NCBI GenBank assembly: GCA_963755305.1
Contig: CAVWJL010000011.1
Location: 14,034 to 78,033, forward strand
Direction of reading: 5' to 3'
Length of the DNA: 64,000 nt
Source: an uncultured Alphaproteobacteria bacterium
GTDB taxonomy: Bacteria > Pseudomonadota > Alphaproteobacteria > Rhizobiales > Xanthobacteraceae
Shown: positions 44,808 to 58,750 of the stretch, one piece after another
How positions within the stretch are numbered: the stretch's first letter is position 1
How the letters are laid out: each line of letters starts with the position of its first letter
The notes under the pieces: generated by a model
The model's database searches: none
What the model was told of the DNA's origin: nothing
Seen by the model: only the letters and a program-made list of their open reading frames with translations
Made by a program: the position numbers and the translations under genes

Positions 44808-45935
44808 TTACAAATGTCCGCTAGGGGCTCGCGTTCGGAGCTTCGCCTTCTTTTCCGGCCGTTCCCGTGCCTGATAGAAGTGAAGAATTTCTCGAGCCGT
44901 TGCGGGCCTAAGCCGCTCGAAATTCGCGAGGCATCGCGCAATCTCGCCTTGCGACATTTTGCGATCTGTTGCGCGGAATAACAGTATTCCCTTTACCGTG
45001 GACCACGTCAGCCCGATCGCACGAGCGACAACCAGCACTGACTCTGCGGGCCCTTGTCTAACCATTCGTTCGACGGAATGAAGCGGCAGTTGGCACATTG
45101 TTGCGAGCGCGGTTATTGTGTCATCAGACTGACCGTTCTCAGCCATAGCTCCTAATGCGTTGTCGTTGAGCTTACTTGAGCGATGTAGCGCTCCGACCGG
45201 CGCCACCACGCCGGGATGGTCGGGCGTTTTGGTGAAGGCTTCTGCCTCAATCCGGTTGGTGACCTCGTCAACGACTTGATTAACGGCGCGCCGCGCGTGC
45301 GGGTGCTCGGCCTCGAGCTTTGCTCGGACGTGTTGAGATGCCCACGCAAGCAGCTTACGGAACAAATGCTGCGGAATATCTGGCCGCGATCCAACACAAG
45401 CCGAAAGGCTATCGTCGCCATTTGAGCGCCGCACAAGTATCTCAAATCCTGCGCCTGAGAACTTTGCGCCTCGGTTTCCGACCGTACTCAGTACGACTTG
45501 TTGATCCCCGCGCGCGACTAGGACGTCGGTGATCGCCTCGCTCACAACCCGTCGGCGCGAGATTGCGAGGAGGTGATCTTGCCCCATCCGCTTCGCATTT
45601 TCGACAAGCGTTGGCTCATCGAGCACTGCGGAATGGATAAGAATAGGACGGGCCACTTCAATGGCCTCGTCGAACGCAAGCGCGCGAACAGTTCTGGGCG
45701 GCGCGTGTGGAATAGGTGCCAAGCGGATCGCGAGCAACGCCCGTGCGGAAATCTCGATCTGCACCGCTAGTCGATTGAAGATGTCATCGAATAAATCGAT
45801 CTCTTCGTCCGAATACTGATTCGACCCGACGATAAAGAGGTCCGTCACACGTCGCAGCAACATCGCGGAGCGATCAACCGACCCGGTCACGATTGCGACT
45901 TCGACGTCCTTGATGGACTTGAGTTCGGCAGTCAC
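44808..45935 (-). CDS. DUF2336-domain protein
   Basis: This is a 375-aa ORF. LLRRVTDLFIVGSNQYSDEEIDLFDDIFNRLAVQIEISARALLAIRLAPIPHAPP...VARPILIHSAVLDEPTLVENAKRMGQDHLLAISRR is the pattern I associate with DUF2336 of Rhizobiales. Confidence 0.7.
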   Translation of the reverse strand: MTAELKSIKDVEVAIVTGSVDRSAMLLRRVTDLFIVGSNQYSDEEIDLFDDIFNRLAVQIEISARALLAIRLAPIPHAPPRTVRALAFDEAIEVARPILIHSAVLDEPTLVENAKRMGQDHLLAISRRRVVSEAITDVLVARGDQQVVLSTVGNRGAKFSGAGFEILVRRSNGDDSLSACVGSRPDIPQHLFRKLLAWASQHVRAKLEAEHPHARRAVNQVVDEVTNRIEAEAFTKTPDHPGVVAPVGALHRSSKLNDNALGAMAENGQSDDTITALATMCQLPLHSVERMVRQGPAESVLVVARAIGLTWSTVKGILLFRATDRKMSQGEIARCLANFERLRPATAREILHFYQARERPEKKAKLRTRAPSGHL

Positions 45936-46248
45936 AGCAGGCCGCCCAGTCCACTGGATTGAGTGCTTGCGCGTATGACACGAACGGTGCCGAGACTTGG
46001 GTTATTGCCGGCAGCCTCCCCGCGCTGGATTAACGTAGAATCTTGTGCCGCCGCTCGATCGCATTCTGCCCACCCCAGCAACCGGGCCGTTCCTTGCCCG
46101 TCCCGCCGCCATGATCAAGCTTCCGCGTAAACTTCAGGTTGAGATTTGATTAATGATTTCTCGCTTGAACGGGGCGTCCGGTTCCCAGCGCTCGATCGGT
46201 CTTGCGCCATTGGGTGCGGGCAATCGACCATGGGCTCAAGGCGTCCGT

Positions 46249-46499
46249 AACAATGAAAGCCCCGGCCGCCTTGCGAACGACCGGAGCTTCCAGAAGGTTG
46301 AGCCGAAGTTGGTGGACGGCTCCCCCACGGCATAACGGGAATGTCTTTCGATAAAGTTGCGCGACGCGAAGAACAGCCACTATTCCTAAAGCCGTGGGGC
46401 GATACTGCGAAGGCGCTGGAATGGTCTGCTCCCGCGTCCGGTTCATCCTGTGCGCTGTCGCTCGGCCCTCAATGAAAGAGGCTCTCCATCGCCGCATTG
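46249..46499 (-). ncRNA. Candidate structured small RNA, paralogue 1 of 3 (family not recognised)
   Basis: This is conserved with 51688-51939 and 58279-58581. The 3' end is a 10-bp hairpin (46259-46268 / 46278-46287). It pairs completely only on the minus strand (2 G-U pairs versus 2 C-A mismatches on plus) and is followed by UUUCAUUGUU. No conserved reading frame exists. The 5' end is unknown. Confidence 0.5.
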
Positions 46500-46637
46500 T
46501 CCTGAACGTTCTAATTTCGCGCGCGTTCTACATTAATCGTCCACGCACCCGAAAAATTGTAGGATCAATTGGGGGCAATGCTTGCGCACCCGAGGCGTAT
46601 TTATTCCTTAGGTGCCAATCCTCCCGAGGATGTCTCG

Positions 46638-49209
46638 ATGAGCACTACTGTTGATGCCGTACTTGACGACCGGCAGCCAAAGGCCAAGGTCTTCATTTCC
46701 TACTCGCGCAAGGATATGGCCTTTGCCGACCAGCTTGAAGCGGCGCTGACGGCGCGCGGTATCGACGCGCTCATAGACCGCAGCGAAATCTATGCCTTCG
46801 AAGACTGGTGGAAACGTATCGAAGTCCTGATCGCGCGAGCAGATACGGTCGTATTCGTGCTCAGTCCCGATGCGGTCGCGTCCGAGGTGGCGCTGAAGGA
46901 GCTTGCCTACGCAACTGCGCTGAACAAGCGCTTCGCGCCGATTGTCTACCGGCGGGTCGATGCCAACGCGGTGCCTGAGGCATTGCGGCGCCTCAATTTC
47001 ATTTTTTTTGATGACGCTGCTCGGACTGACGCCAACGAAAATCAACTTGTCGAAGCTCTGCAGACCGACATCGACTGGATTAGAAGACACACAGAATTCG
47101 GCGAGGTGTCGCGGCGTTGGACAGCGGCCGGTCGCCCACGGGGGCTGCTCCTACGGACGCCGCTCCTGGAAGAGGCCGAGCGATGGATAGCTGTTCGTCC
47201 CGAAAGTGCACCGGCGGCTACGGAAGAAACGCAGATCTTTATTGCAGAAAGTCGGAAGGGTGCGCTGCGCCGGCGGAATATTCTTACCGGAAGCCTAGCG
47301 ACAGGGTTGATGGTCGCTCTCGTCCTTGCCGGGCTCGCCTATTGGCAGCGTGGGATCGCAATAGAGCAGCAAGGAATAGCGCTCGCCGAGCGCGACAAGG
47401 CAACGCACAGCTTCAATCTTGCGCAACAAACCGCCGATAGCCTGGTGGTCGATATTGCGCGCGGCCTGCGAAATGTGCACGGCATGAGCGCCGAATCGGT
47501 CCGCAAGATTCTTCGAAACCGCAAGGGCGACTTTCGAGCAGCTCGCAGCCTCTGCGCCCGACAATCTCGCTCTGCAGCGAAGCCGCTCTGTAATGCTCGA
47601 CGAATTCGGCGAGACCTTCGAGACGCTCGGCGACCTCGAGGAGGCTCTCAAGGCCTACCGCGACAGCCTCGCCATCAGAAAGCGGCTCGCCGGCACCGAT
47701 CTCAGCAATACACAATGGCAGCGCGATCTGTCGGTGTCGTATGGCAGGATCGGCGAAGCGCTGGTGCGAAGGGGCAAGCTCGAGGAGGCTTTCAAGGCCT
47801 ACCGCGAAAGCCTCGCCATCGCGGAACGTCTCGCCGGCGCCGATCCCAGCAATGCACAATGGCAGCGCGACCTGTCGGTGTCGTATGACAAAATTGGTGA
47901 TGTGCTGGTGCGGCAAGGCAAGCTCGAGGAGGCGGTCAAGAGTTATCGCGCCGGCCTCGGGATCAAGGAGCGCCTGACCGCCGCCGATCGGGGCAACACC
48001 GAGTGGCAGCGCGATCTGTCGTTGTCCTACATCAGCCTCGGCGAAGTTCTGGTAAGGCAAGGCAAGCTCGAGGAGGCGCTTAGGGTCTACAGCGGCAGCC
48101 TCGCCATCAGGGAGCGCCTCGCTGCCGCCGAACCCGGCAATACCGAGTGGCAAAGCGATTTAACGGTCTCGTACAACAACATCGGTGACGTGCTGGTACG
48201 GCAGGGCAAGCTCGAGCGGGCGCTCAAAGCCTTCCGCGACGGCCTCGCGATCGCGGAGCGCCTCGCCGCCGGCGATCGCAGCAATACGCAATGGCAGCGC
48301 GATCTGTCGGTTTCATACGAGAAGGTCGGCAACGTGCTGGTACGGCAGGGTAAGCTGGAGGAAGCGCTCAAGGCCTACCGCGACGGCCTCGCGATCGCCG
48401 AGCGCCTGGCCGTCGTGGATCGCAACAATGCTGAGTGGCAGAACGATCTGGCGCTGTCTTACGAGAAGCTCGGCGACGTGCTGGTACGGCAGGATAAGAT
48501 CGATGAGGCGCTCAAGGCCTATCGTGACAGCCTAACCATCGCCGAGCGCCTTGTCGCCGCCGATCCCAGCAATAGCGAGGCACAGCGCGATTTGTCGGTG
48601 TCGTATAACAAGATCGGCGACGTGCTGGTACGGCAGGGCAATCTAGACGAGGCGTTCAAGGTGTATCGCGACAGCCTCGCTATCAGGGAGCGCCTCGCCG
48701 TCGCCGATCGCAGCAACGCCGAGTGGCAGCGCGATCTGTCGGTGTCGTACGGGAAGCTCGGTGATGTGTTGGTGGCGCAAGGCAAGCTGGAGGACGCGCT
48801 CAAAGCCTACCGCGACGGCCTCGCCATTGCACTGCAACTCGCCGCGACCGACCGTAGCAATGCCGAGTGGCGAAATGACCTTCAGATCAGCATCGGCAGG
48901 GTCGGCAGTATGGCTTACCGCTTTGTCCTGGGGAATGATTTCGCGAAAGCTCTTGAAGTCGCGGACCAAGCCATCTCCCTCGCGCCCGACGCGGTATGGC
49001 TCTACACCAACCGCGCCCACGCGCTCATGTTCCTCGGCCGTGGGGGCGAAGCGCGTGCGCTCTATCTTCAGTATCGCGGTGAGAACAATGTGCAGAGTGG
49101 AAGGTCCTGGGACAAGATTATAATCGAGGACTTCGCCAAGATGCGAAAGGCGGGGCTTACACATCCGCTAATGGAAGAGATCGAGACAAGGCTTGCGGCA
49201 GGGGGATGA
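46638..49209 (+). pseudogene. TIR-domain / single-TM / TPR-array protein, split by a 1-nt frameshift near 47510 (or an assembly indel)
   Basis: The TIR domain reads KVFISYSRKDMAFADQLEAALTARGIDALIDRSEI...ADTVVFVLSPDAVASEVALKELAY. A post-TIR helix follows (DIDWIRRHTEFGEVSRRW...LLLRTPLLEEAERW), then a TM segment (ILTGSLATGLMVALVLAGLAYW). ORF 46569-47888 loses homology after SVRKIL. The protein continues in the frame of ORF 47593-49209 (ETARATFEQLAASAPDNLALQRSRSVMLDEFGE...) with ~9 TPR-like 48-aa units. Confidence 0.8.
47590..48900 (+). repeat. ~9 tandem 144-bp coding repeats (48-aa TPR-pair units, highly internally conserved)
   Basis: The unit is SN(T/A)(E/Q)WQRDLSVSYxKIGDVLVRQGKLEEALKAYRDSLAIAERLAAADP. 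Nine copies of the WQRDL(S/A)(V/L)SY core can be counted in the ORF translation. Confidence 0.9.
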
Positions 49210-49495
49210 AAGCGGCCCGTAGTAAGCCAGCAAGGCAATCGGGTCGCTCGTACTCGCCGGCGAAAGAGGCGCCCTCCCCGAAATGAGCGCTTCGACCCAC
49301 TGTTGTAAATCAGCGCGCTTGAGTGATCTTTTTCGGCGCCAACGCGTGACCCCTGCATGGCGTTTGAATTGAGGGCTGTGACAAAGGGATGCTAGACTAG
49401 ACGCATATCGGGTCTATGTTGGCCGGCCTCAAGTCTGATCCCACGCCGGTCCACACCTCGAGCGCCGGCTCGATGACATCGCTATGCCCAGCAAA

Positions 49496-51082
49496 TCACC
49501 TTGGTTGGCATGCCGCCGAACAATGGGAAACGCTCGCAAGGCAACTTTGTAGGATTTCCGCGTATTGGGCTTCCTGGTTCTGACCGGTCTCAGTGTGGCC
49601 TTTTGCATTACATGTGATGAATGTATGGAAGCACACTTCGCATGCGTTCTGCTTCTCGACTGACTGCGCCCATTCTCGGCATGATCCCATGCATTGATGA
49701 GAAAGCCGCAAACTAAAATCAATGCAATTTCGACGTTCCCCTTGCTCAATGGAAGCAGCGGGAAAATATCGCTCGCAAACGGAAGTAATGTACGTTCGGT
49801 GCAGAGACCGGCACGATTGACTGCACGCAGCTCGTCGAGCGCCGATTTGCATTCCTAAACTCGGATAGCCGGCGCGAAGCGCATCCTCGAGGCGCGACAG
49901 GTTGCTTTGCGCTTCCTTGTCGCCGAGGGCCGCCGCCCTCATAAACCAAGCTTTGGCCTCCGCTTCGTCTCTGTCTACACCTCGTCCGTTCAGATAGAGG
50001 AGCCCAATATTGTTCATGGCGGAACCATCGCCGCGCGCGGCTGCCTTTTCGAACAATTCCTTGGCGCGGCTGAAATTCGTCGGGCCACCGCTGCCGGCGA
50101 GATAGAGCTGGCCCAACGCGTTGAGGGCGCGCGGCAGTCCCAGCGCAGCCGCCCGTTCGTACCAGAGTCTCGCTTGTTCAAGGTCCCGGGACATGCCGCG
50201 GCCGTCTTGAAAAAGCTCAGCGAGGCTAGCCATGGCAGGAGCGCTGCCGAGTGCGGCGCCCTTTTCGTACAAATCCCTCGCGGTCGCTAGGTTGGGCGAC
50301 ACGCCGCGGCCGCGCTCGAACAGCCCACCAAGGTAGGCCATGGCGTCGGGATCGCCGAGTGCGACGGCTCTTTCGTACCATTTGCGCGCCAGTGCCACAT
50401 TCTCTGGCACACCCTTGCCGGCCTCGCTCAATCGTCCGAGATGAGTCATAGCAGCCGGCAGGTTGAGGTCGGCTGCTTTGGCATACCAGTCGCGAGCGAG
50501 CGCCAAATTCTGTGGCACGCCTCGGCCTTCCTCATAGAACATGCCGAGTTGGTTCATGGCGAAGGCGTCGCCAAGCGCGGCGGCCTTCGCGTACCAGGCT
50601 TTGGCAGTCGCCAGATTGACGTCGCCGCCGACGCCGTACTCGCTCCACCGACCGAGCTCATTCATGGCCCGCGGATCGCCGCCCTCCGCCGCCTTTTCGT
50701 ACCACGTCAGCGCCGTCGCAAGATTTCTCGGGACACCGCGGCCGTATTCAAACAACAGGCCAAGCTCGGTCATCGCGCCTGTATGCCCACGATCAGCGGC
50801 ATCGAGAAAAAGTTGGATGGCCTCCCGGTGCCTTTGGGCGACAGACAGCGCCCGACCCAACAGAAACATCAAACCTGGATCGTTTGGTTTGGCTTTGAGC
50901 GCCGCCCGGCATGCGTCGATGGCCGGGGCATCAGCACCGCCGATCTGGGTCAGCGCGGTAGATAGTTCAGACGCAATATTTTTCGTTTGCCGTTCACACT
51001 CCTCCGGCGATCGCGCCAGGCTGGTATCGAGCAGCAGTACCGACCACAGAACGACCAGCGCAATTTTTTTTAGGAGGTTCAT
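49496..51082 (-). CDS. Secreted Sel1-like repeat (SLR) protein with a Cys-rich C-terminal domain
   Basis: The signal peptide is MNLLKKIALVVLWSVLLLDTSLA. About 9 Sel1 units follow (AxxWYxKAAxxGxxxAMxxLGxLYExGRGVPxNxxxA). The last ~130 aa contain 11 Cys. Confidence 0.85.
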   Translation of the reverse strand: MNLLKKIALVVLWSVLLLDTSLARSPEECERQTKNIASELSTALTQIGGADAPAIDACRAALKAKPNDPGLMFLLGRALSVAQRHREAIQLFLDAADRGHTGAMTELGLLFEYGRGVPRNLATALTWYEKAAEGGDPRAMNELGRWSEYGVGGDVNLATAKAWYAKAAALGDAFAMNQLGMFYEEGRGVPQNLALARDWYAKAADLNLPAAMTHLGRLSEAGKGVPENVALARKWYERAVALGDPDAMAYLGGLFERGRGVSPNLATARDLYEKGAALGSAPAMASLAELFQDGRGMSRDLEQARLWYERAAALGLPRALNALGQLYLAGSGGPTNFSRAKELFEKAAARGDGSAMNNIGLLYLNGRGVDRDEAEAKAWFMRAAALGDKEAQSNLSRLEDALRAGYPSLGMQIGARRAACSQSCRSLHRTYITSVCERYFPAASIEQGERRNCIDFSLRLSHQCMGSCREWAQSVEKQNACEVCFHTFITCNAKGHTETGQNQEAQYAEILQSCLASVSHCSAACQPR

Positions 51083-51294
51083 CTGGTGCTTCTACGGAAA
51101 GTCTGCTCGCTTTGCGGGCGGGATGGCATCAAGCTTATCCAATCTTCCACCGCCAGGGGTATCATCGAACTACGGCTCGATCAGCCGTCTTGGGCGCCTT
51201 TGCCCTATCTATACACGGTTGCGGGCCGTCGAAACTGCCCTCAATATTTACCTTTGTGCCCGACGATTTTGGCATCCTATGGTCGGTGACCGCG

Positions 51295-51561
51295 ATGTCA
51301 GGTGCTCGTCAGGACTTTCGAAAAAGCAGACGTAGACCATCGCGCCAAGCAACATGGATCAACCTTGGCGATCATTGCCCGCGGGTGCGCTGCATCTTTT
51401 GGGATATTTCCGACGGCGGGGCCCGCCTCACTGCCGCGCGCAATGTCGAAGATCTGCCCGATCACTTTTCTCTGGTCTTGAATGCTGCTGTGGAACGCAG
51501 CTGCCGCGTGGTTTGGCGGAATGGACGCTTCGTTGGCATTGCGTTCATCTATACTGCGTGA
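51295..51561 (+). CDS. PilZ-domain protein
   Basis: MSGARQDFRKSRRRPSRQATWINLGDHCPRVRCIFWDISDGGARLTAARNVEDLPDHFSLVLNAAVERSCRVVWRNGRFVGIAF carries the RxxxR and D-x-S-x-x-G PilZ motifs. Confidence 0.75.
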   Translation: MSGARQDFRKSRRRPSRQATWINLGDHCPRVRCIFWDISDGGARLTAARNVEDLPDHFSLVLNAAVERSCRVVWRNGRFVGIAFIYTA

Positions 51562-51687
51562 CGCCTGGACTGGGTCGTGTGCCAAATCAAGCTTATTGAC
51601 TGCGCTCGCTCCGAGTCCGCTACCCCGATTGCGACGAATGGCTGGGGCCCGCGTTGGTCATATCGACCGTGGATTCACGGAATGCGC

Positions 51688-51939
51688 AACAATGAAAGCT
51701 CCGGCCACATTGCGAACGACCGGAGCTTCCAGAAGGTTGAGCCGAAGTTGGTGGACGGCTCCCCCACCGCATATCGGGAATGTCTTTCAATAAAGTTGCG
51801 CGACGCAACGAATAGCCGCTATTACCCGAAGTCGCGGGTGATGCAGCAAGGGCGCTGGGGTCGCGTGCTCCCGCGTCCGGTTCATCTTGCGCGCTGTTCG
51901 CTCGGTCTTCAACCACAGAAGCCCTCCATCGCCGCATTT
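51688..51939 (-). ncRNA. Candidate structured small RNA, paralogue 2 of 3
   Basis: The terminator hairpin at 51698-51707 / 51717-51726 pairs fully only on the minus strand (2 G-U pairs) and is followed by UUUCAUUGUU. The internal helices CCGC/GCGG and CTTC/GAAG covary with CCAC/GTGG and CCTC/GAGG of paralogue 1. Confidence 0.5.
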
Positions 51940-52079
51940 TGCAGTGTGATGGCTCTACAACTGCTCACCGTTGCACTGGCTGCCGCGATCGGCGTGATGC
52001 GATAGATCGCTTAGAGACGACGTTGTCAGAAGCGATTTGGGCTCACCGGACTGCAAGTCCTGATGCCCGAAAGCGCCCG

Positions 52080-55000
52080 TCAAATTCGGCGACGAAGGTT
52101 GCCACATTCGGCGCTTCTCATCGGTTTTGCAAATAGGAACCCCTGCATCGCATGCACTCCGGCCGCTGTGACGAATTTCTGTTGTTCGACGGTTTCGACA
52201 CCCTCGGCAACGACCTTCAGGCCCAATGCCCGGCCGATGCTTACGACTGCATGCACGATCGTCGCGTCAACCGCCAAACCGACATTCGATACGAAACTTT
52301 GATCGATCTTGATCTTATCGATCGGGAAGCGGCGCAGGGACGTCAGGCTCGAATATCCGGTGCCAAAGTCATCGAGCGCAAACGACACGCCGCAGTGATG
52401 CAATTGTTCGATGGACTGCAGCACGGCGGCTTCGGCATCGAGCAAAGCCGTCTCGGTGATCTCAAGCTCGACGCGGCTTGGGTCGATGGTTGATTCAAAC
52501 AGAATCTGCTCAATGCGGTCCGCCGAGCCCCGGCCGACGAAACTGAACCGCCGACAGGTTCACGGCGACGGTGAGCCTGGACCAGGCAAGCGCATCCGCA
52601 CAGGCGCGCCGCAACACCCATTCGCCCAATTCATCAATGAATCCGGTCCGTTCGGCGACCGGCACGAACACCGAAGGAGGTACATTGTCCGCGCCGTTCC
52701 TCAGCCAGCGAACGAGCGCTTCGACACCGAGCACCTGCTGACCGGTGCGGTCCACAAACGGCTGGTACTCGACGTCGAGTTCCTGACGCTGGATTGCGAG
52801 GTGGAGATCCTGCGTAAGGCTGTCCACCGGCACGATCAGGGCCGGCGCGGCATGGCCCGTCTCAAGCAATGGCTGACCGCCGTATTTCTCTCCGATTTCG
52901 TCGGCCAAAACCGCCAACGTGCGCTCCAGCGTGCTCGACAGCGCATCGAGCTGGTTCTGATCGGGCACCTTGCCGTCACTCCTCGCCATTTGCTCGAAGC
53001 TGGCGGCGATCTTGGCGACCTCGATGCGCGCCGATATTGAGGCTCATCGATTTGAGGGAATGGGCCAGCGAGCCACACGCCTCGGCTTCACCGGCCTGCG
53101 CTTGTTGCCTCAATTGACCGCAGGCGCTTCGGCGCATGCTCGGAATAAAGGTCAACCACGCGCTTGAGGAAGTCGCCCTTCTTGGCCTCGCTCAGCGTCC
53201 TCAATTGCCCCAAGGTGGCAGGATCGACGAGCGGCATGTCGCGCCTCCGTCGGCGCTGGATGATCCTGTCGCAACCTCGCGCTCGCGACCGGGCCGTCAT
53301 CATTGACCTCCGCAGGCCTCGCCGGCCGGCATCTGGAATTGCGGCACCTGATCCACCAGGCATTGGGCGAGCTGCGCGATCGTGAACGGCTTGTGGATGA
53401 CCGCGTCCATGCCGGCGAGCCGCCACTCCTCGGCGGCCGCGCCAATCACGTGCGCGGTCAAGGCGACAATCGGAATACGGACACGATTTTCCGCTTGCTC
53501 CGCCTGCCGAATGATGCGGGCGGCCGTATAGCCATCCATTTGCGGCATGCTGCCATCCATCAGGATGATGTCATGCGAACGCCTCGATGCGGCGCTGACC
53601 GCCTCAGCGCCGTTTTCGACGGTCTCGACTTGAGCGCCCAATCGGGACAACGCCTCGATGGCGACCTCGCGATTGACCGCGCTGTCGTCGGCCACCAGCA
53701 CCCTGAGGTTCGCGAATCTCGGCAGCGGGCCATCTCGTCGTTGCCCGGCCGCCCGGCCGTGCAGCTGCTTTTCTCCGGCGGCGACACGGCGCAACAGCTC
53801 CTCGATTTCCGAGCGCAGCAGCGGGCGGCTGATCGCGGCATCGGCCGCGCCATTCGCGATGACGACGTCGGCCGTGGCGTCCCCAAATCGTGTCACCGCC
53901 ACCACGATGGGAATTCGGCCGGACCGGTCCCCGCAGCGGGAGCTTCTCCAGGCGGTCGGCGTCCGCGCATACCATCGCAGCCGATCCGTAATCCGCGATC
54001 GACATCCGCGGCTCGGCGCGCGCACACCGCATAGCCGAAGGCGCAGAGATAATCCGACAATGCCGAAGCGGTCGCTTCCCCCGCTACGTCGACGATGCAA
54101 ACGGGTCGCTCCGGCGACTTGGTGGCGAGCGTCGGCCACGGACGGCTGATCGTCTCGCCGGTCGGAATCCGGACGCGGAACTTCGACCCGACGCCGACGG
54201 TGCTGGAGACCTCTATGTCGCCGCCCATGGCGGTGACGATACGCCGGCAGATGGCCAGCCCCAATCCGGTGCCGCCAAACTTCCGGGTCGTGGATTGGTC
54301 CGCTTGCGAAAAGACCTCGAAGATCGTCGAAAGCTTCTCCTCGGGAATTCCGATCCCGGTGTCTTCGACCGACAGATCGATCAGTTGCGAATCGACCGGA
54401 CACTTGCTGACTGGCGAGCCTGACAAATCCGCTTTCGGTGAACTTCAGCGCGTTGTTGACCAGGTTGCCGACGACTTGGCTGAGGCGAACCACATCACCC
54501 GATATCCTTCGTGGCACGTCCGGATCGATCACGGCGGCAAGGTCGATGTTTTGCGAAGCTCGCGCGCTCGGCGAACAGGCTGGTCACGTTCTCCACGACC
54601 TCGTCGAGGTCGAATCTGCCCGCTCTCCAATTCGAGCTTGCCGGCTTCGATCTTCGAGAAATCCAGGATGTCGTTGATGATCGACAACAGGCTTCGGCCG
54701 GATGTGGCGATGACCTCCGCATATCGATGCAGGCGCCGCGGGATGTCCGCGTTCGCCAGCAGATCCGCCATGACCATGATGCCATTCATCGGCGTGCGAA
54801 TTTCGTGGCTCATGGTGGCGACAAAGTCGGATTTGGCGTGATTGGCTTTCTCGGCGGCGTCTCGGGCGCAGGCCAACTCGCGCGTGCGGTCGACGACTTT
54901 CTGTTCAAGAGTCTCCCGGTATGCGGTCAGGCGCTCGTCGCGATCGCGGATGTCGCTCAGCATTGCATTGAAGCCATCGACCAAAAGGCCGATCTCCTGA

Positions 55001-55638
55001 TCGGTCGCCTCCTCGACGTGCACATCGTAGCGATGGTCCCTTCGGACCTCCTGCATGGCCCCCAGCAGACGATGCAACGGATGCGTGATCGCCCGCTGAA
55101 ATCGCCATGCGATGAGTAGACCGACCGCAAGCGCCGCAACCGAGGCGAGCAGGGTCAGCCACAGGGTCGACAGCAGCCGCGGCCAGAGGTCCGCGGTATC
55201 GCTGATCAAATTGATCCGTCCGACCTCCTTGCCGCCGTCGATCACCGGCACCGAAACGAGAACGGTTCCGCTGCGCAGCAAATCAAGGATGGACGGTGTC
55301 TCTCGGTCGTTCAGCAAAGGATCGGTAACCAGACGCGATACCCCGCCGAGCGCGGCGAGCACATGGCCGTCCGGGGTTCTCACCTGGACAAACAGAAATC
55401 CGGGCACGCGCCCAATCGCCCGAATGGCCTCCAGCGTTTCCTGTTGCTTGAGCTCGGCGACGGAACTCGCGGCTGCGGCCGCAAAGGCCTGCGCCGTCGC
55501 ATGCATGAGCTGGCGGCGCGCATCCGCATAGCGCTCGACCTCCTGCCAGGTCGCAAGCAGCGCGGAGACGGCCATGCCCGCCGTTACGGCAGTCGCCACC
55601 AATATGACGAGCTTTCGAACCAGCGACCGGCGGCGCAC
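52080..55638 (-). pseudogene. Hybrid sensor kinase (TM-HAMP-HisKA-HATPase-REC-Hpt-EAL) broken by at least eight frameshifts
   Basis: Domain segments are found in successive frames:
- HAMP/HisKA: [20 protein letters not shown].
- HATPase: [21 protein letters not shown], then [13 protein letters not shown]...[14 protein letters not shown].
- REC: RVLVADDSAVNREV...DIILMDGSMPQMDGYTAARIIR...IVALTAH...HKP.
- Hpt: CGSLAHSLKSMSLNIGA.
- EAL: EYQPFVD...EALVRW, EITETALL, DDFGTGYSSLTSLR, AEGVE...QGFLFAKP.
Frame changes lie near 54622, 54553, 54425, 54030, 53935, ~53300, 53085 and 52515. Confidence 0.8.
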
Positions 55639-58153: not shown

Positions 58154-58278
58154 TGCCCGGATGGGCGGGTGGGCTGAATCAAGCCAGCGGCTCGCTACGA
58201 GCCGCCCCCGCTAAGTAGCGACCGTATAGCTGGCTGCAAATGCGTGGCGGCCATTGCGGCGTAGACTTACAGCGTCCG

Positions 58279-58581
58279 CAATGGCGAAAGCCCCGGCCGC
58301 CTATCGACGGCCGGGGCTTCCAGACGATTGAGCCGAAGTTGGCGGACGGCTCCCATCCGGCATATCGGGAATGTCTTTCAATAAAGTTGCGCGACGCCAG
58401 CCGCGAGCTGTGGCGGCCAGCCGCTAGCGACGACCTGGCGCTAATGGCGACCAACCGCCATTGGCCTAGAGTCGGGAGCGACACTGTGAAGAAGCCGGGA
58501 CTGAATCTGCTCCCGCGTCCGACATATCTTGCGCGCTGTTCGTTCGGCCTTCAACGGCAGGGCTCTCCCGCAGCGCATTGT
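58279..58581 (-). ncRNA. Candidate structured small RNA, paralogue 3 of 3 (with a ~50-nt insertion in the variable middle)
   Basis: The terminator hairpin GCCCCGGCCG/CGGCCGGGGC (58290-58299 / 58308-58317) is perfect and is followed on the minus strand by UUUCGCCAUUG. The conserved core GGGAATGTCTTTCAATAAAGTTGCGCGACGC and the 5' block CTGCTCCCGCGTCCG...GCGCGCTGTTCG are shared with the other copies. Confidence 0.45.
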
Positions 58582-58750
58582 TGCGAACGCTGCCCGAACG
58601 GCTCATCGAATAAAAGCGCCGTGACCCCTGGCAAGACTTGCAATTTTGGGTAGGCTTCCAGCCCAAGCACCTAGAGACGTTGAGAAGATCAATCAGCCCG
58701 AAAACGACTGATCACCCTTGTCAGAGCCAGATCGCGATGTGCGCAATTTC

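What the first reader, a model, noticed from the sequence alone, without database searches (positions are those of the whole stretch)
46638..49209. TIR - transmembrane - TPR-array protein with Toll-like-receptor-like topology, carrying highly internally conserved repeats and a frameshift
The N-terminal ~140 aa form a TIR domain (FISYSRKD...VVFVLSPDAV...KEL). A conserved helical linker follows, then a single hydrophobic helix preceded by RRRN, which by the positive-inside rule places the TIR domain in the cytoplasm. About nine nearly identical 48-aa TPR-pair units come next and would then face the periplasm.

This gives a repeat ectodomain, one TM segment and a cytoplasmic TIR domain. That is the topological logic of Toll-like receptors, without the STAND NTPase seen in most bacterial TIR defence proteins. 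The 144-bp units are so similar that they imply ongoing concerted evolution or recombination. That pattern is typical of ligand-binding arrays under diversifying selection.

The gene is split by a single-nucleotide frameshift near 47510 (ATTCTTCGAAACC).
Basis: partly seen in the sequence, partly recalled or inferred. Interest (0 to 1): 0.6.

Follow-up and report, generated by a model that had tools for sequence, protein, structure and literature searches.

The report
Membrane-spanning bacterial TIR receptor, TPR ectodomain
This gene encodes a single-pass membrane protein with an immune-type TIR domain predicted inside the cell and a nine-unit TPR array predicted outside, one of a large unstudied family of receptor-like proteins in soil bacteria; its frameshift is most likely an assembly error.

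Summary
The described anatomy is real. 46638..49209(+) reads as one 856-aa protein:
- TIR_2 domain (Pfam E 2e-22)
- a conserved helical linker with no Pfam family
- one conserved transmembrane helix (res 215-236, preceded by RRRN)
- nine in-register 48-aa TPR_10/12 units
- a TPR-like cap

Two claims are overstated.
- The units are not nearly identical. They are 54-83% identical in DNA (mean 72%), and third codon positions are only 61% identical. Each unit is one two-helix hairpin.
- The one-base frame change at 47511-47514 is in the assembly, but relatives read straight through. The same assembly breaks essential genes (dnaE, gyrA, a tRNA synthetase), so an assembly indel is the likelier cause.

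Topology is supported across the family. 244 of 268 homologues have exactly one TM, and 96% have the positive charge bias on the TIR side.

The genome holds at least 8 paralogues of this head fused to TPR, WD40 or FGE-sulfatase. It also holds a second TIR-TM-TPR subtype and an nSTAND1-linker-TM-TPR protein. No gene neighbour is conserved.

Sensor arrays diverge much faster than heads.

Function is inferred, not shown. This scan met the same layout before on other DNA. In print I found only architecture strings in a supplement.

The parts
46626..46640 (+). Shine-Dalgarno-like GAGGA (46626-46630) and start codon ATG (46638-46640)
   Evidence: Read directly from the sequence. The closest homologue, P0121, starts at the same Met (MSTAVDAALDDR).
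46683..47063 (+). TIR domain (res 16-142): strands 17-21, 43-45, 70-75, 98-103 with helices between them
   Evidence: Pfam TIR_2 E 2e-22. A profile of 13 relatives hits TLR1/2/6/15 TIR (E 1e-11) and SARM1 (E 1.7e-8). The AF2 model and Foldseek match SPARTA TIR-APAZ, SARM1 and MyD88 TIR.
46899..46901 (+). [quoted passage not shown]
   Evidence: Invariant in 13 and in 46 aligned relatives. It aligns with the Glu of 'YEL' in TLR TIR domains. [quoted passage not shown] The residue four positions before it is Val, not the ligand-contacting Trp.
47064..47273 (+). Conserved cytoplasmic helical linker (res 143-212) with the motif TDIxWIRxHT...W...LLLR..L..AE.W...P..PT...FI..SR..RRR
   Evidence: Invariant D144, W147, R149, T152, W161, S205 and R212. 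Helices at 145-163 and 175-185, and one starting at 196. No Pfam family even at E<=10. No PDB structure aligns beyond the TIR part. The same motif follows the nSTAND1 NTPase in a paralogous protein.
47280..47345 (+). Single transmembrane helix (res 215-236, ILTGSLATGLMVALVLAGLAYW), preceded by RRRN
   Evidence: Kyte-Doolittle 19-residue maximum of 2.08. 244 of 268 homologues have exactly one such segment near res 215, and K+R is higher on the N-side in 96%. The TM is 77-85% identical to homologues that are only 59-68% identical in the TPR array. L220, G223, L230 and W236 are invariant.
47346..47628 (+). Periplasmic-side juxtamembrane helical stalk and a degenerate first half-unit (res 237-330). 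It contains the frame change.
   Evidence: AF2 predicts one continuous helix, 196-278, running through the TM. This region is 82% identical to P0121.
47511..47514 (+). Site of the +1 frame change (CTTC). The assembly has one base more than every relative here.
   Evidence: The stop-to-stop frames overlap at 47488-47888. Twelve relatives and paralogues read ...(K/R)(I/V)L(E/D)TA... in one frame, with CTC/CTG followed by GAA/GAG/GAT.
47629..48924 (+). Nine 144-nt (48-aa) TPR_10/TPR_12-type units in exact register (res 331-762)
   Evidence: TRF reports period 144, 8.6 copies and 76% matches. The repeat finder gives 9 copies at a spacing of 144. Pfam TPR_10 E 6.9e-49 and TPR_12 E 6.3e-48. In the AF2 model (pLDDT 94.4) each unit is two helices of 20-21 residues. 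Foldseek finds a superhelix like LGN and OGT TPR.
48925..49209 (+). C-terminal cap: two shorter TPR_19-like hairpins and a conserved tail (…SWDKIIIEDFAKMRKAGLTHPLMEEIE), then the stop codon
   Evidence: Pfam TPR_19 E 9.3e-6. The same tail occurs in the full-length homologues P0047, P0030 and P0026 (58-63% identity). Helices at 476-562 of the model.

Best explanation
The gene encodes a bitopic (N-in, C-out) inner-membrane receptor-like protein of 856 residues.

Layout:
- The TIR domain and a family-specific helical linker sit in the cytoplasm.
- One unusually conserved TM helix, continuous with helices on both sides, crosses the membrane.
- A superhelix of nine 48-residue TPR hairpins plus a cap faces the periplasm.

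It belongs to a very large, patchily distributed, multi-paralogue family of soil Alphaproteobacteria. In that family the same TIR-linker-TM head carries interchangeable extracytoplasmic modules (TPR, WD40 or FGE-sulfatase). The gene acts alone, with no conserved partner gene and no NTPase switch.

Most likely mechanism (inferred, not shown):
1. A periplasmic ligand, probably an extended peptide or protein as for LGN- and OGT-type TPR superhelices, binds the array.
2. Binding clusters the receptors.
3. The signal passes through the conserved TM and stalk helix.
4. The cytoplasmic TIR domains are brought together.
5. The TIR domains then cleave NAD+ or make a nucleotide signal, as in TIR-based immunity or abortive infection.

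The one-base frame change at 47511-47514 is most likely an indel error of an error-rich long-read assembly, not a feature of the gene.
For: Shown:
- Domain content.
- TIR fold.
- Invariant Glu88 at the NADase position.
- One TM with positive-inside bias, here and in 96% of 244 single-TM homologues.
- No N-terminal signal peptide. The TIR domain starts at res 16.
- The TM is more conserved than the flanking domains.
- AF2 predicts a continuous helix, 196-278, through the membrane.
- TPR superhelix model with pLDDT 94.4. Its closest structures are peptide-binding TPR solenoids.
- At least 8 paralogues in the genome share the head, fused to TPR, WD40 or FGE-sulfatase.
- There are 2,399 representative clusters at E<=1e-30.
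- The family was found in 11 of the other 24 genomes of the genus that were searched.
- No conserved neighbour in 80 loci.
- Arrays are always more diverged than heads: 1,149 pairs have 75-90% head identity and 57-64% array identity. Some pairs have 99-100% head identity and 47-77% array identity.

Frameshift as artefact:
- Relatives are in frame at this site.
- dnaE is in at least 4 frame pieces, gyrA in 2, and a class I aminoacyl-tRNA synthetase in at least 5.
- The genome is 77% 'complete' in only 14 contigs.
- Frame switches occur in 14 of 30 long-read-MAG copies against 1 of 7 short-read copies.
Against: - No experiment and no dedicated topology predictor was available. Topology rests on hydropathy and charge bias.
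- The Trp four residues before the catalytic Glu contacts ligand in SARM1 (PMC7075850). Here and in the close paralogues it is Val, Ala or Ile.
- That Glu is also kept by non-enzymatic TLR TIR domains, so NADase activity is uncertain.
- There is no defence-island context. The neighbours are c-di-GMP signalling, DUF2336 and Sel1 genes.
- PADLOC and NCBIfam give only domain-level TIR hits, far below the family cut-offs.
- Variable unit positions lie on the exposed faces of both helices, which neutral drift would also produce.
rpoB, rpoC, secA and ileS are intact, so the errors are uneven.
Confidence: 0.6

Rival explanations
1. The frameshift is real, and this copy is a recently inactivated pseudogene in a rapidly turning-over paralogue family. 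The N-terminal 292 residues plus a nonsense tail might still be made.
For: - The frame change is present in the assembly.
- Several other paralogues are also frame-broken: C6:583.9k once and C8:260.6k five times.
- Large accessory families commonly contain decaying copies.
- One short-read copy (L064) also shows a frame switch.
Against: - Both halves keep clean, family-typical sequence up to the junction.
- Essential genes are broken in the same assembly, so frame breaks here cannot be taken as biology.
- The break rate is much higher in long-read MAG copies.
Confidence: 0.2
2. The layout is as described, but the TIR domain is a non-enzymatic assembly or adaptor module. The protein would report an envelope or cell-cell cue, by recruiting other TIR or linker-bearing proteins, and would not act in immunity through NAD+ cleavage.
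For: - The Trp at Glu-4 is missing.
- The best sequence matches of the family profile are signalling TLR TIR domains.
- The neighbours are signalling genes, not defence genes.
- The genome holds other TIR proteins and an nSTAND1 protein with the same linker that could be partners.
Against: - Glu88 is invariant across the family.
- Structural matches include the NADases SPARTA and SARM1.
- Patchy distribution, paralogue expansion and fast-changing sensor arrays are more typical of conflict systems.
Confidence: 0.25
3. The hydrophobic segment does not span the membrane, or it only tethers the protein, so the TIR domain and the TPR array are both cytoplasmic, as in soluble TIR-TPR proteins.
For: TPR_10/12 arrays are mostly known from cytoplasmic STAND proteins. 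No dedicated topology predictor could be run.
Against: - The segment has 22 uncharged residues and a Kyte-Doolittle score of 2.08.
- Exactly one such segment occurs in 244 of 268 homologues, with a strong charge asymmetry.
- The same head carries FGE-sulfatase and WD40 modules, which also follow a TM in bacterial receptor kinases.
- A single membrane-spanning helix must put the two ends on opposite sides.
Confidence: 0.07
4. The frame change is a programmed +1 ribosomal frameshift at CUU-CGA, with a rare Arg codon in the A site, that regulates production of the full receptor.
For: CUU followed by a rare Arg codon looks superficially like known +1 sites. This rests on my own knowledge of prfB and Ty1.
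Against: - None of 12 relatives or paralogues has the shift at this site.
- Frame switches in other copies fall at scattered positions.
Confidence: 0.01

Closest known systems
Animal Toll-like receptors (TLR1, TLR2, TLR6, TLR15)
   Same: - One TM separates a repeat solenoid outside from a TIR domain inside.
- No NTPase switch.
- Many paralogues with different ectodomains.
- TLR TIR domains are the best PDB sequence matches of the family profile (E 1e-11).
   Different: - Domain order and orientation are inverted. Here the TIR domain is N-terminal (type II, N-in). TLRs are type I with a C-terminal TIR domain.
- The ectodomain is TPR, WD40 or FGE-sulfatase, not LRR.
- An extra conserved cytoplasmic linker is present.
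- No adaptor is known.
- This is analogy of design. Common descent of the whole receptor is not shown.
nSTAND1+TM+TPR, TIR+TM+BetaPropeller, CASPASE+TM+TPR and TIR+TRADD-N+TM+TPR layouts listed in the supplement of Kaur, Iyer, Burroughs and Aravind 2021 (PMC8195603)
   Same: - An effector or NTPase head, one TM, then TPR or beta-propeller repeats.
- The window's linker and TM motif recurs after the nSTAND1 domain of a paralogous 1563-aa protein in this genome.
   Different: - Those layouts appear only as architecture strings in neighbourhood tables.
- The exact string TIR+TM+TPR has 0 rows.
- The main-text passages that my searches for 'transmembrane', 'periplasm' and 'nSTAND' returned do not discuss the membrane-spanning layout or its topology.
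- The window's protein has no NTPase.
Bacterial single-pass Ser/Thr kinases with extracytoplasmic TPR, WD40 or FGE-sulfatase domains (for example 'Pkinase+TM+TPR+TPR'; a Planctomycetota kinase paper, PMC11032199, appears in the list but was not read)
   Same: An N-terminal cytoplasmic output domain, one TM, and the same set of C-terminal sensor modules.
   Different: The output is a TIR domain plus a family-specific linker instead of a kinase.
Characterised bacterial TIR defence proteins (Thoeris ThsB, SPARTA TIR-APAZ, TIR-SAVED, TIR-STAND/Avs)
   Same: TIR fold with the conserved Glu. SPARTA TIR is the top structural match (E 3e-7).
   Different: - Those proteins are soluble and work with a partner or an NTPase or nucleic-acid sensor.
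- Here there is no partner gene, NTPase, SAVED or APAZ.
- NCBIfam gives Thoeris ThcB4 35 bits against a cut-off of 220, and PADLOC gives domain-level hits only.
Fungal NLRs with highly conserved TPR_10, ANK or WD40 repeats (from my own knowledge: Dyrka et al. 2014)
   Same: TPR_10-type units of fixed length, with a few variable positions per unit.
   Different: Fungal arrays are near-identical at the DNA level and recombine. Here the units are only 72% identical on average, with diverged third codon positions.

Membership tests
TIR domain superfamily (Pfam TIR_2, PF13676) | Profile match above the curated threshold | tested here: met
   80.4 bits against a cut-off of 28, E 2e-22, res 18-137 covering profile positions 1-121 of 122.
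TIR domain superfamily (Pfam TIR_2, PF13676) | Flavodoxin-like alternating strand-helix fold | tested here: met
   The AF2 model has strands 17-21, 43-45, 70-75 and 98-103 with helices between them. Foldseek gives probability 1.0 for SPARTA, SARM1, MyD88 and TLR TIR domains, with target TM-scores up to 0.77.
NAD+-cleaving TIR enzymes (SARM1, plant TIRs, bacterial TIR NADases) | [quoted passage not shown] | tested here: met
   E88 is invariant in 13 and in 46 relatives and aligns with the Glu of TLR 'YEL'. The role of this Glu is taken from PMC7075850.
NAD+-cleaving TIR enzymes (SARM1, plant TIRs, bacterial TIR NADases) | Aromatic ligand-contacting residue (Trp) four positions before the Glu | tested here: not met
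   It is Val84 here and Val, Ala, Ile or Arg in the close paralogues. TLR sequences have Trp at this aligned position. A second TIR subtype in the same genome has the Trp (SKWVNKEV).
NAD+-cleaving TIR enzymes (SARM1, plant TIRs, bacterial TIR NADases) | Measured NADase activity | not testable with these tools
   Needs a biochemical assay.
Toll-like receptors | N-terminal LRR ectodomain, type I orientation, C-terminal TIR domain | tested here: not met
   The TIR domain is N-terminal, the ectodomain is TPR_10/12, and no LRR was found.
Toll-like receptors | A single TM between the extracytoplasmic repeats and the cytoplasmic TIR domain | tested here: met
   By prediction only: one TM, positive-inside bias and no signal peptide.
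Bacterial STAND / NLR-like defence proteins (Avs, nSTAND1, bNACHT) | Central P-loop STAND NTPase | tested here: not met
   Pfam and NCBIfam find no NTPase domain. Only 70 residues of helical linker lie between the TIR domain and the TM. A paralogous protein does carry nSTAND1 (E 3.6e-74).
Thoeris (ThsB with a ThsA-type effector) | ThsB-type TIR protein next to a ThsA or other effector gene | tested here: not met
   NCBIfam ThcB4 gives 35 bits against a cut-off of 220. No recurrent neighbour in 80 loci. The window's neighbours are GGDEF-EAL, DUF2336 and Sel1 genes.
TPR_10 / TPR_12 repeats | Repeated helix-turn-helix units forming a superhelix | tested here: met
   TPR_10 E 6.9e-49 and TPR_12 E 6.3e-48. 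Model pLDDT 94.4 with 9 regular hairpins. Foldseek finds LGN, OGT and consensus TPR.
Programmed +1 ribosomal frameshift | The shift site is conserved in homologues | tested here: not met
   Twelve relatives and paralogues are in frame at this site.
Twin-arginine (Tat) signal | Match to Tat signal profiles | tested here: not met
   Pfam TAT_signal gives 13.3 bits against a cut-off of 22.7 (E 0.085). No NCBIfam Tat model matched in three paralogues. The segment is also internal, at residue 210.

The most novel reading that the evidence does not exclude
Soil Alphaproteobacteria carry germline repertoires of a dozen or more Toll-like-receptor-style innate receptors per genome.
- Each has a cytoplasmic TIR head wired through a conserved TM directly to a periplasm-facing sensor (TPR, WD40 or FGE-sulfatase), with no NTPase switch.
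- Sensor arrays are exchanged or rebuilt behind nearly unchanged heads. Some pairs have heads that are 99-100% identical while their arrays are 47-77% identical.
- This would be a way of sensing invaders or competitors before they reach the cytoplasm.
Probability: 0.3. Interest if true: 0.8.

Novelty: new variant of a known kind. Interest (0 to 1): 0.5.

Why it matters
To my knowledge, the bacterial TIR immune systems characterised so far sense events in the cytoplasm, and most need a partner protein or an NTPase switch.

A very large family of stand-alone membrane-spanning TIR proteins would mean something different. The family has 2,399 representative clusters and up to about a dozen copies per genome, with sensor domains facing the periplasm. 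This would let bacteria couple extracytoplasmic recognition directly to TIR signalling, which is the design principle of animal Toll-like receptors.

The idea can be tested with cultured carriers. More distant homologues (42-44% identity) lie in Bradyrhizobium lablabi and Roseibium aggregatum isolates.

For this particular window the practical message is more modest. The gene is an ordinary member of that family, and its frameshift should not be read as biology.

Tried and rejected
- **Reading the protein through with a four-letter code word.** No in-frame 4-mer at the junction is unique in the gene. The joined protein was therefore built only inside scripts. Searches used the two pieces or intact homologues.
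- **Single-sequence search of the TIR part against PDB.** No hits even at E<=10. A 13-sequence profile was needed.
- **Internal Tat signal (RRRNILTGSL...).** Pfam gives a weak sub-threshold hit. NCBIfam gives nothing. The motif is not kept in the WD40 paralogues. Rejected.
- **Basecalling error at the GANTC methylation motif as the cause.** A GATTC lies 1-5 nt before the site. The other frame-change positions noted in the window show no consistent GANTC nearby, though those positions are approximate. Left open and not used.
- **Conserved partner genes.** Clustering of 825 flanking ORFs from 80 loci gave no family present in more than 6 loci.
- **Synteny of the window's neighbours in related loci.** None found.
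- **Rfam scan of 45800-52300.** Nothing.
- **Promoter and terminator scan.** Uninformative.
- **Literature.** Six full-text searches and four papers read found no study of TIR-TM-TPR proteins. Only supplement strings turned up.
Full report
**What is in the sequence**

An ATG at 46638, preceded by GAGGA at 46626-46630, opens a frame that reads cleanly to about 47513. A second frame, shifted by +1, is open from 47488 and runs to the stop at 49207-49209. Frame A ends with ...GMSAESVRKIL. Frame B continues ETARATFEQLAASAPDN.... An intact paralogue in the same genome reads ...RAESVRKILETAKATFEQLAAA... in one frame (L003/L020, 932 aa). So do the closest database relative, P0121 (86% identical over the first 292 residues), and ten further relatives. 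The assembly therefore carries one base too many inside CTTC at 47511-47514. Read through inside a script, the product is 856 residues without a stop.

**Domains**

- Pfam finds TIR_2 at residues 18-137 (E 2e-22). In the second frame it finds TPR_10 and TPR_12 (E about 1e-48).
- PADLOC and NCBIfam give only domain-level TIR matches, far below any family cut-off. Thoeris ThcB4, for example, scores 35 bits against a cut-off of 220.
- A profile of 13 relatives matches the TIR domains of TLR1, TLR2, TLR6 and TLR15 (E about 1e-11), then TIR-STING, SARM1 (E 1.7e-8), MyD88 and bacterial TIR domains.
- An AlphaFold2 model of residues 1-292 (46-sequence alignment, mean pLDDT 78.6) has the TIR fold. Two linker helices follow (145-163 and 175-185), then one long helix, 196-278.
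- Foldseek matches only the first 140 residues or so, to SPARTA TIR-APAZ, SARM1, MyD88 and TLR TIR domains.
- The linker (residues 143-212) has invariant D144, W147, R149, T152, W161, S205 and R212 and no Pfam family even at E<=10.

**The catalytic question**

Glu88 lies in helix alpha-C, between strands beta-C and beta-D. It is invariant in 13 and in 46 relatives and aligns with the Glu of the TLR 'YEL' motif. According to PMC7075850, this Glu is critical for NADase activity in bacterial, plant and SARM1 TIR domains. [quoted passage not shown] Here that position is Val84. NADase competence is therefore possible but not assured.

**Membrane helix and topology**

- Residues 215-236 (ILTGSLATGLMVALVLAGLAYW) give the only strong hydropathy peak in the protein (Kyte-Doolittle 2.08). 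The segment is preceded by RKGALRRRN and followed by QRG.
- Among 268 homologues, 244 have exactly one such segment, at a median start of residue 215. K+R is higher in the N-side flank in 96% of them, by a mean of 2.6.
- There is no N-terminal signal peptide.
- A single spanning helix therefore places the TIR domain and linker in the cytoplasm and the repeats outside.
- The TM is unusually conserved: 77-85% identical to homologues whose arrays are 59-68% identical. L220, G223, L230 and W236 are invariant. This suggests specific helix packing rather than a mere anchor.
- No dedicated topology predictor was available.

**The repeats**

- Nine units lie in exact 144-nt register at 47629-48924, after a degenerate half-unit.
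- They are not nearly identical. DNA identity is 54-83% (mean 72%) and protein identity 44-77% (mean 64%). Codon positions 1, 2 and 3 are 76%, 80% and 61% identical. This is the pattern of old units under purifying selection, not of recent homogenisation.
- The AF2 model of the second frame (mean pLDDT 94.4, pTM 0.81) shows each 48-residue unit as one hairpin of two helices of 20-21 residues. A cap of shorter TPR-like hairpins follows.
- The closest structures are peptide-binding TPR superhelices such as LGN, OGT and consensus TPR.
- The 48-residue period is a property of the family. 587 of 619 spacings tallied are exactly 48.
- Across 274 units, positions 17, 29 and 39 are the most variable, each above 3 bits. 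G1, A6, L7, I16, L20, N27, Q31, G42 and Q48 are nearly fixed.
- The variable positions form stripes on the exposed faces of both helices, so they do not by themselves prove a ligand-binding surface.

**Evolution of array against head**

- Against full-length homologues of 63-65% identity, unit i is no more similar to unit i (0.59-0.64) than to any other unit (0.56-0.60). Within the window's own protein the mean is 0.64.
- Against the closest relative, P0121, the TIR domain is 90% identical, the linker 82%, the TM 85% and the stalk 82%. The TPR units are only 66% identical, which is the unit-to-unit floor.
- Family-wide, all 1,149 pairs with 75-90% head identity have lower array identity (57-64%).
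- Some pairs have 99-100% identical heads and arrays only 47-77% identical.
- The sensor arrays therefore turn over or are exchanged much faster than the signalling head.
- Caveats: the pairs are not independent, arrays differ in unit number, and metagenome chimeras are possible.

**Family and genome context**

The genome has 14 contigs, 5.67 Mb and 77% completeness. It holds at least 8 genes with this head (63-70% identity for five of them, 42-51% for three):

| Place | C-terminal module | State |
|---|---|---|
| Window (C11) | TPR array | one frame change |
| C4:673.5k | TPR array | intact |
| C6:583.9k | TPR array | frame-broken |
| C8:260.6k | TPR array | frame-broken |
| C12:380.6k | short TPR-like domain | open frame, 445 aa |
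| C4:26.8k | WD40 | intact |
| C8:912k | WD40 | reading frame lost near the C-terminus |
| C8:540k | FGE-sulfatase | intact |

- The genome also holds four copies of a second TIR subtype, with the canonical W-x3-E, followed by a TM, the same stalk and the same 48-residue units.
- It also holds a 1563-residue nSTAND1-linker-TM-TPR protein.
- A full scan of 1.84 billion representative proteins finds 2,399 clusters at E<=1e-30.
- The word-index search lists hundreds more, named only 'TPR repeat protein' or 'WD40 repeat protein'.
- Carriers are mostly soil MAGs of Xanthobacteraceae, Beijerinckiaceae, Stellaceae and other Alphaproteobacteria, often with several copies per genome. More distant members occur in Bradyrhizobium lablabi and Roseibium aggregatum isolates.
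- Within the genus, 11 of the other 24 genomes searched have a match.
- No neighbour gene is conserved across 80 loci.
- The window's own neighbours are dCache-GGDEF-EAL, DUF2336 and Sel1 genes, and they are not found beside relatives.

**The frameshift**

Indirect evidence favours an assembly error.

- Every relative is in frame at the site.
- The essential genes dnaE (at least 4 frame pieces), gyrA (2 pieces) and a class I aminoacyl-tRNA synthetase at C4:528.5-530.7k (at least 5 pieces) are broken in this assembly. rpoB, rpoC, secA and ileS are intact.
- Among family copies with TPR arrays, 14 of 30 from the long-read 'MFD' MAG series show frame switches at scattered places. Only 1 of 7 from short-read assemblies does.
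- That the window's genome is itself such a long-read MAG is my inference, from its statistics and its relatives.
- I put about 0.75-0.8 on artefact, 0.2 on a real inactivating mutation and 0.01 on programmed frameshifting.

**Comparison with what is known**

The design matches Toll-like receptors in logic: repeat ectodomain, one TM, cytoplasmic TIR domain, no NTPase, many paralogues. It does not match in membership, because the orientation is inverted and there is no LRR.

The nearest published items are architecture strings in the supplement of Kaur et al. 2021:
- nSTAND1+TM+TPR
- TIR+TM+BetaPropeller
- CASPASE+TM+TPR
- TIR+TRADD-N+TM+TPR
- Pkinase+TM+TPR

The exact string TIR+TM+TPR has no row. 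The main-text passages that my searches for 'transmembrane', 'periplasm' and 'nSTAND' returned do not discuss the membrane-spanning layout. Earlier reports of this scan described the same layout on other DNA: TIR-TM-WD40 in a cyanobacterium and TIR-TM-TPR in marine bacteria. I found no experimental study in the held library.

**Verdict**

The gene is a real and, by design, intact member of a large, unstudied family of single-pass TIR receptors with extracytoplasmic sensor modules. The 'nearly identical repeats and concerted evolution' reading does not hold, although fast array turnover does. The frameshift is most likely an assembly error.

Noticed in passing
window 46223-46498, 51662-51938 and 58272-58589: A repeat of about 280 bp, 81-89% identical. 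It occurs three times within 12 kb and nowhere else in the 5.67-Mb genome. The first copy lies just upstream of the TIR gene. The first two copies bracket the TIR and Sel1 genes at a spacing of 5,439 bp. Rfam finds no match (first two copies scanned).
   Followed up: partly
G000 C4:89825-91900, C8:65003-66829, C8:288572-291511, C8:92919-95492: A second TIR subtype (Pfam TIR_2 and ThsB_TIR, with the canonical Trp-x3-Glu, SKWVNKEV) is fused to a TM, the same juxtamembrane stalk and the same 48-residue TPR units. Together with at least 8 genes carrying the window's type of head and one nSTAND1-linker-TM-TPR gene, this gives about 13 membrane-spanning receptor-like genes in one genome.
   Followed up: partly
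G000 C4:96253-100941 (L103): A 1563-residue protein with nSTAND1 (E 3.6e-74), then the same linker motif and TM, then TPR_10/12 arrays. The window's protein looks like this layout with the NTPase left out and a TIR domain in front.
   Followed up: partly
G000 C2:233451-236334, C2:89459-92111, C4:528581-530727: The essential genes dnaE, gyrA and a class I aminoacyl-tRNA synthetase are split into several reading frames. rpoB, rpoC, secA and ileS are intact. Indel errors are frequent in the assembly but unevenly spread.
   Followed up: partly
proteins P0122, P0124, P0125, P0147: Proteins of 1,400-2,200 residues carry 7-8 tandem copies of a module resembling the TIR-linker head, at 28-32% identity. 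Some have no TM segment.
   Followed up: no
protein P0054: A head 79% identical to that of the intact paralogue L020 is fused instead to a helicase and restriction-subunit-like region (JGI name: type I restriction enzyme R subunit; 919 aa). It comes from a 3-kb contig, so a chimera is not excluded.
   Followed up: no
proteins P0098 against P0100/P0109, and P0039 against P0041: Pairs whose TIR-to-stalk heads are 99-100% identical have TPR arrays only 47-77% identical. This suggests array replacement behind a constant head, or assembly chimeras.
   Followed up: no
window 53303-55638 (- strand): HAMP and HisKA lie in one ORF and the receiver domain in the next, and Pfam reports no HATPase_c domain in either ORF.
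   Followed up: partly
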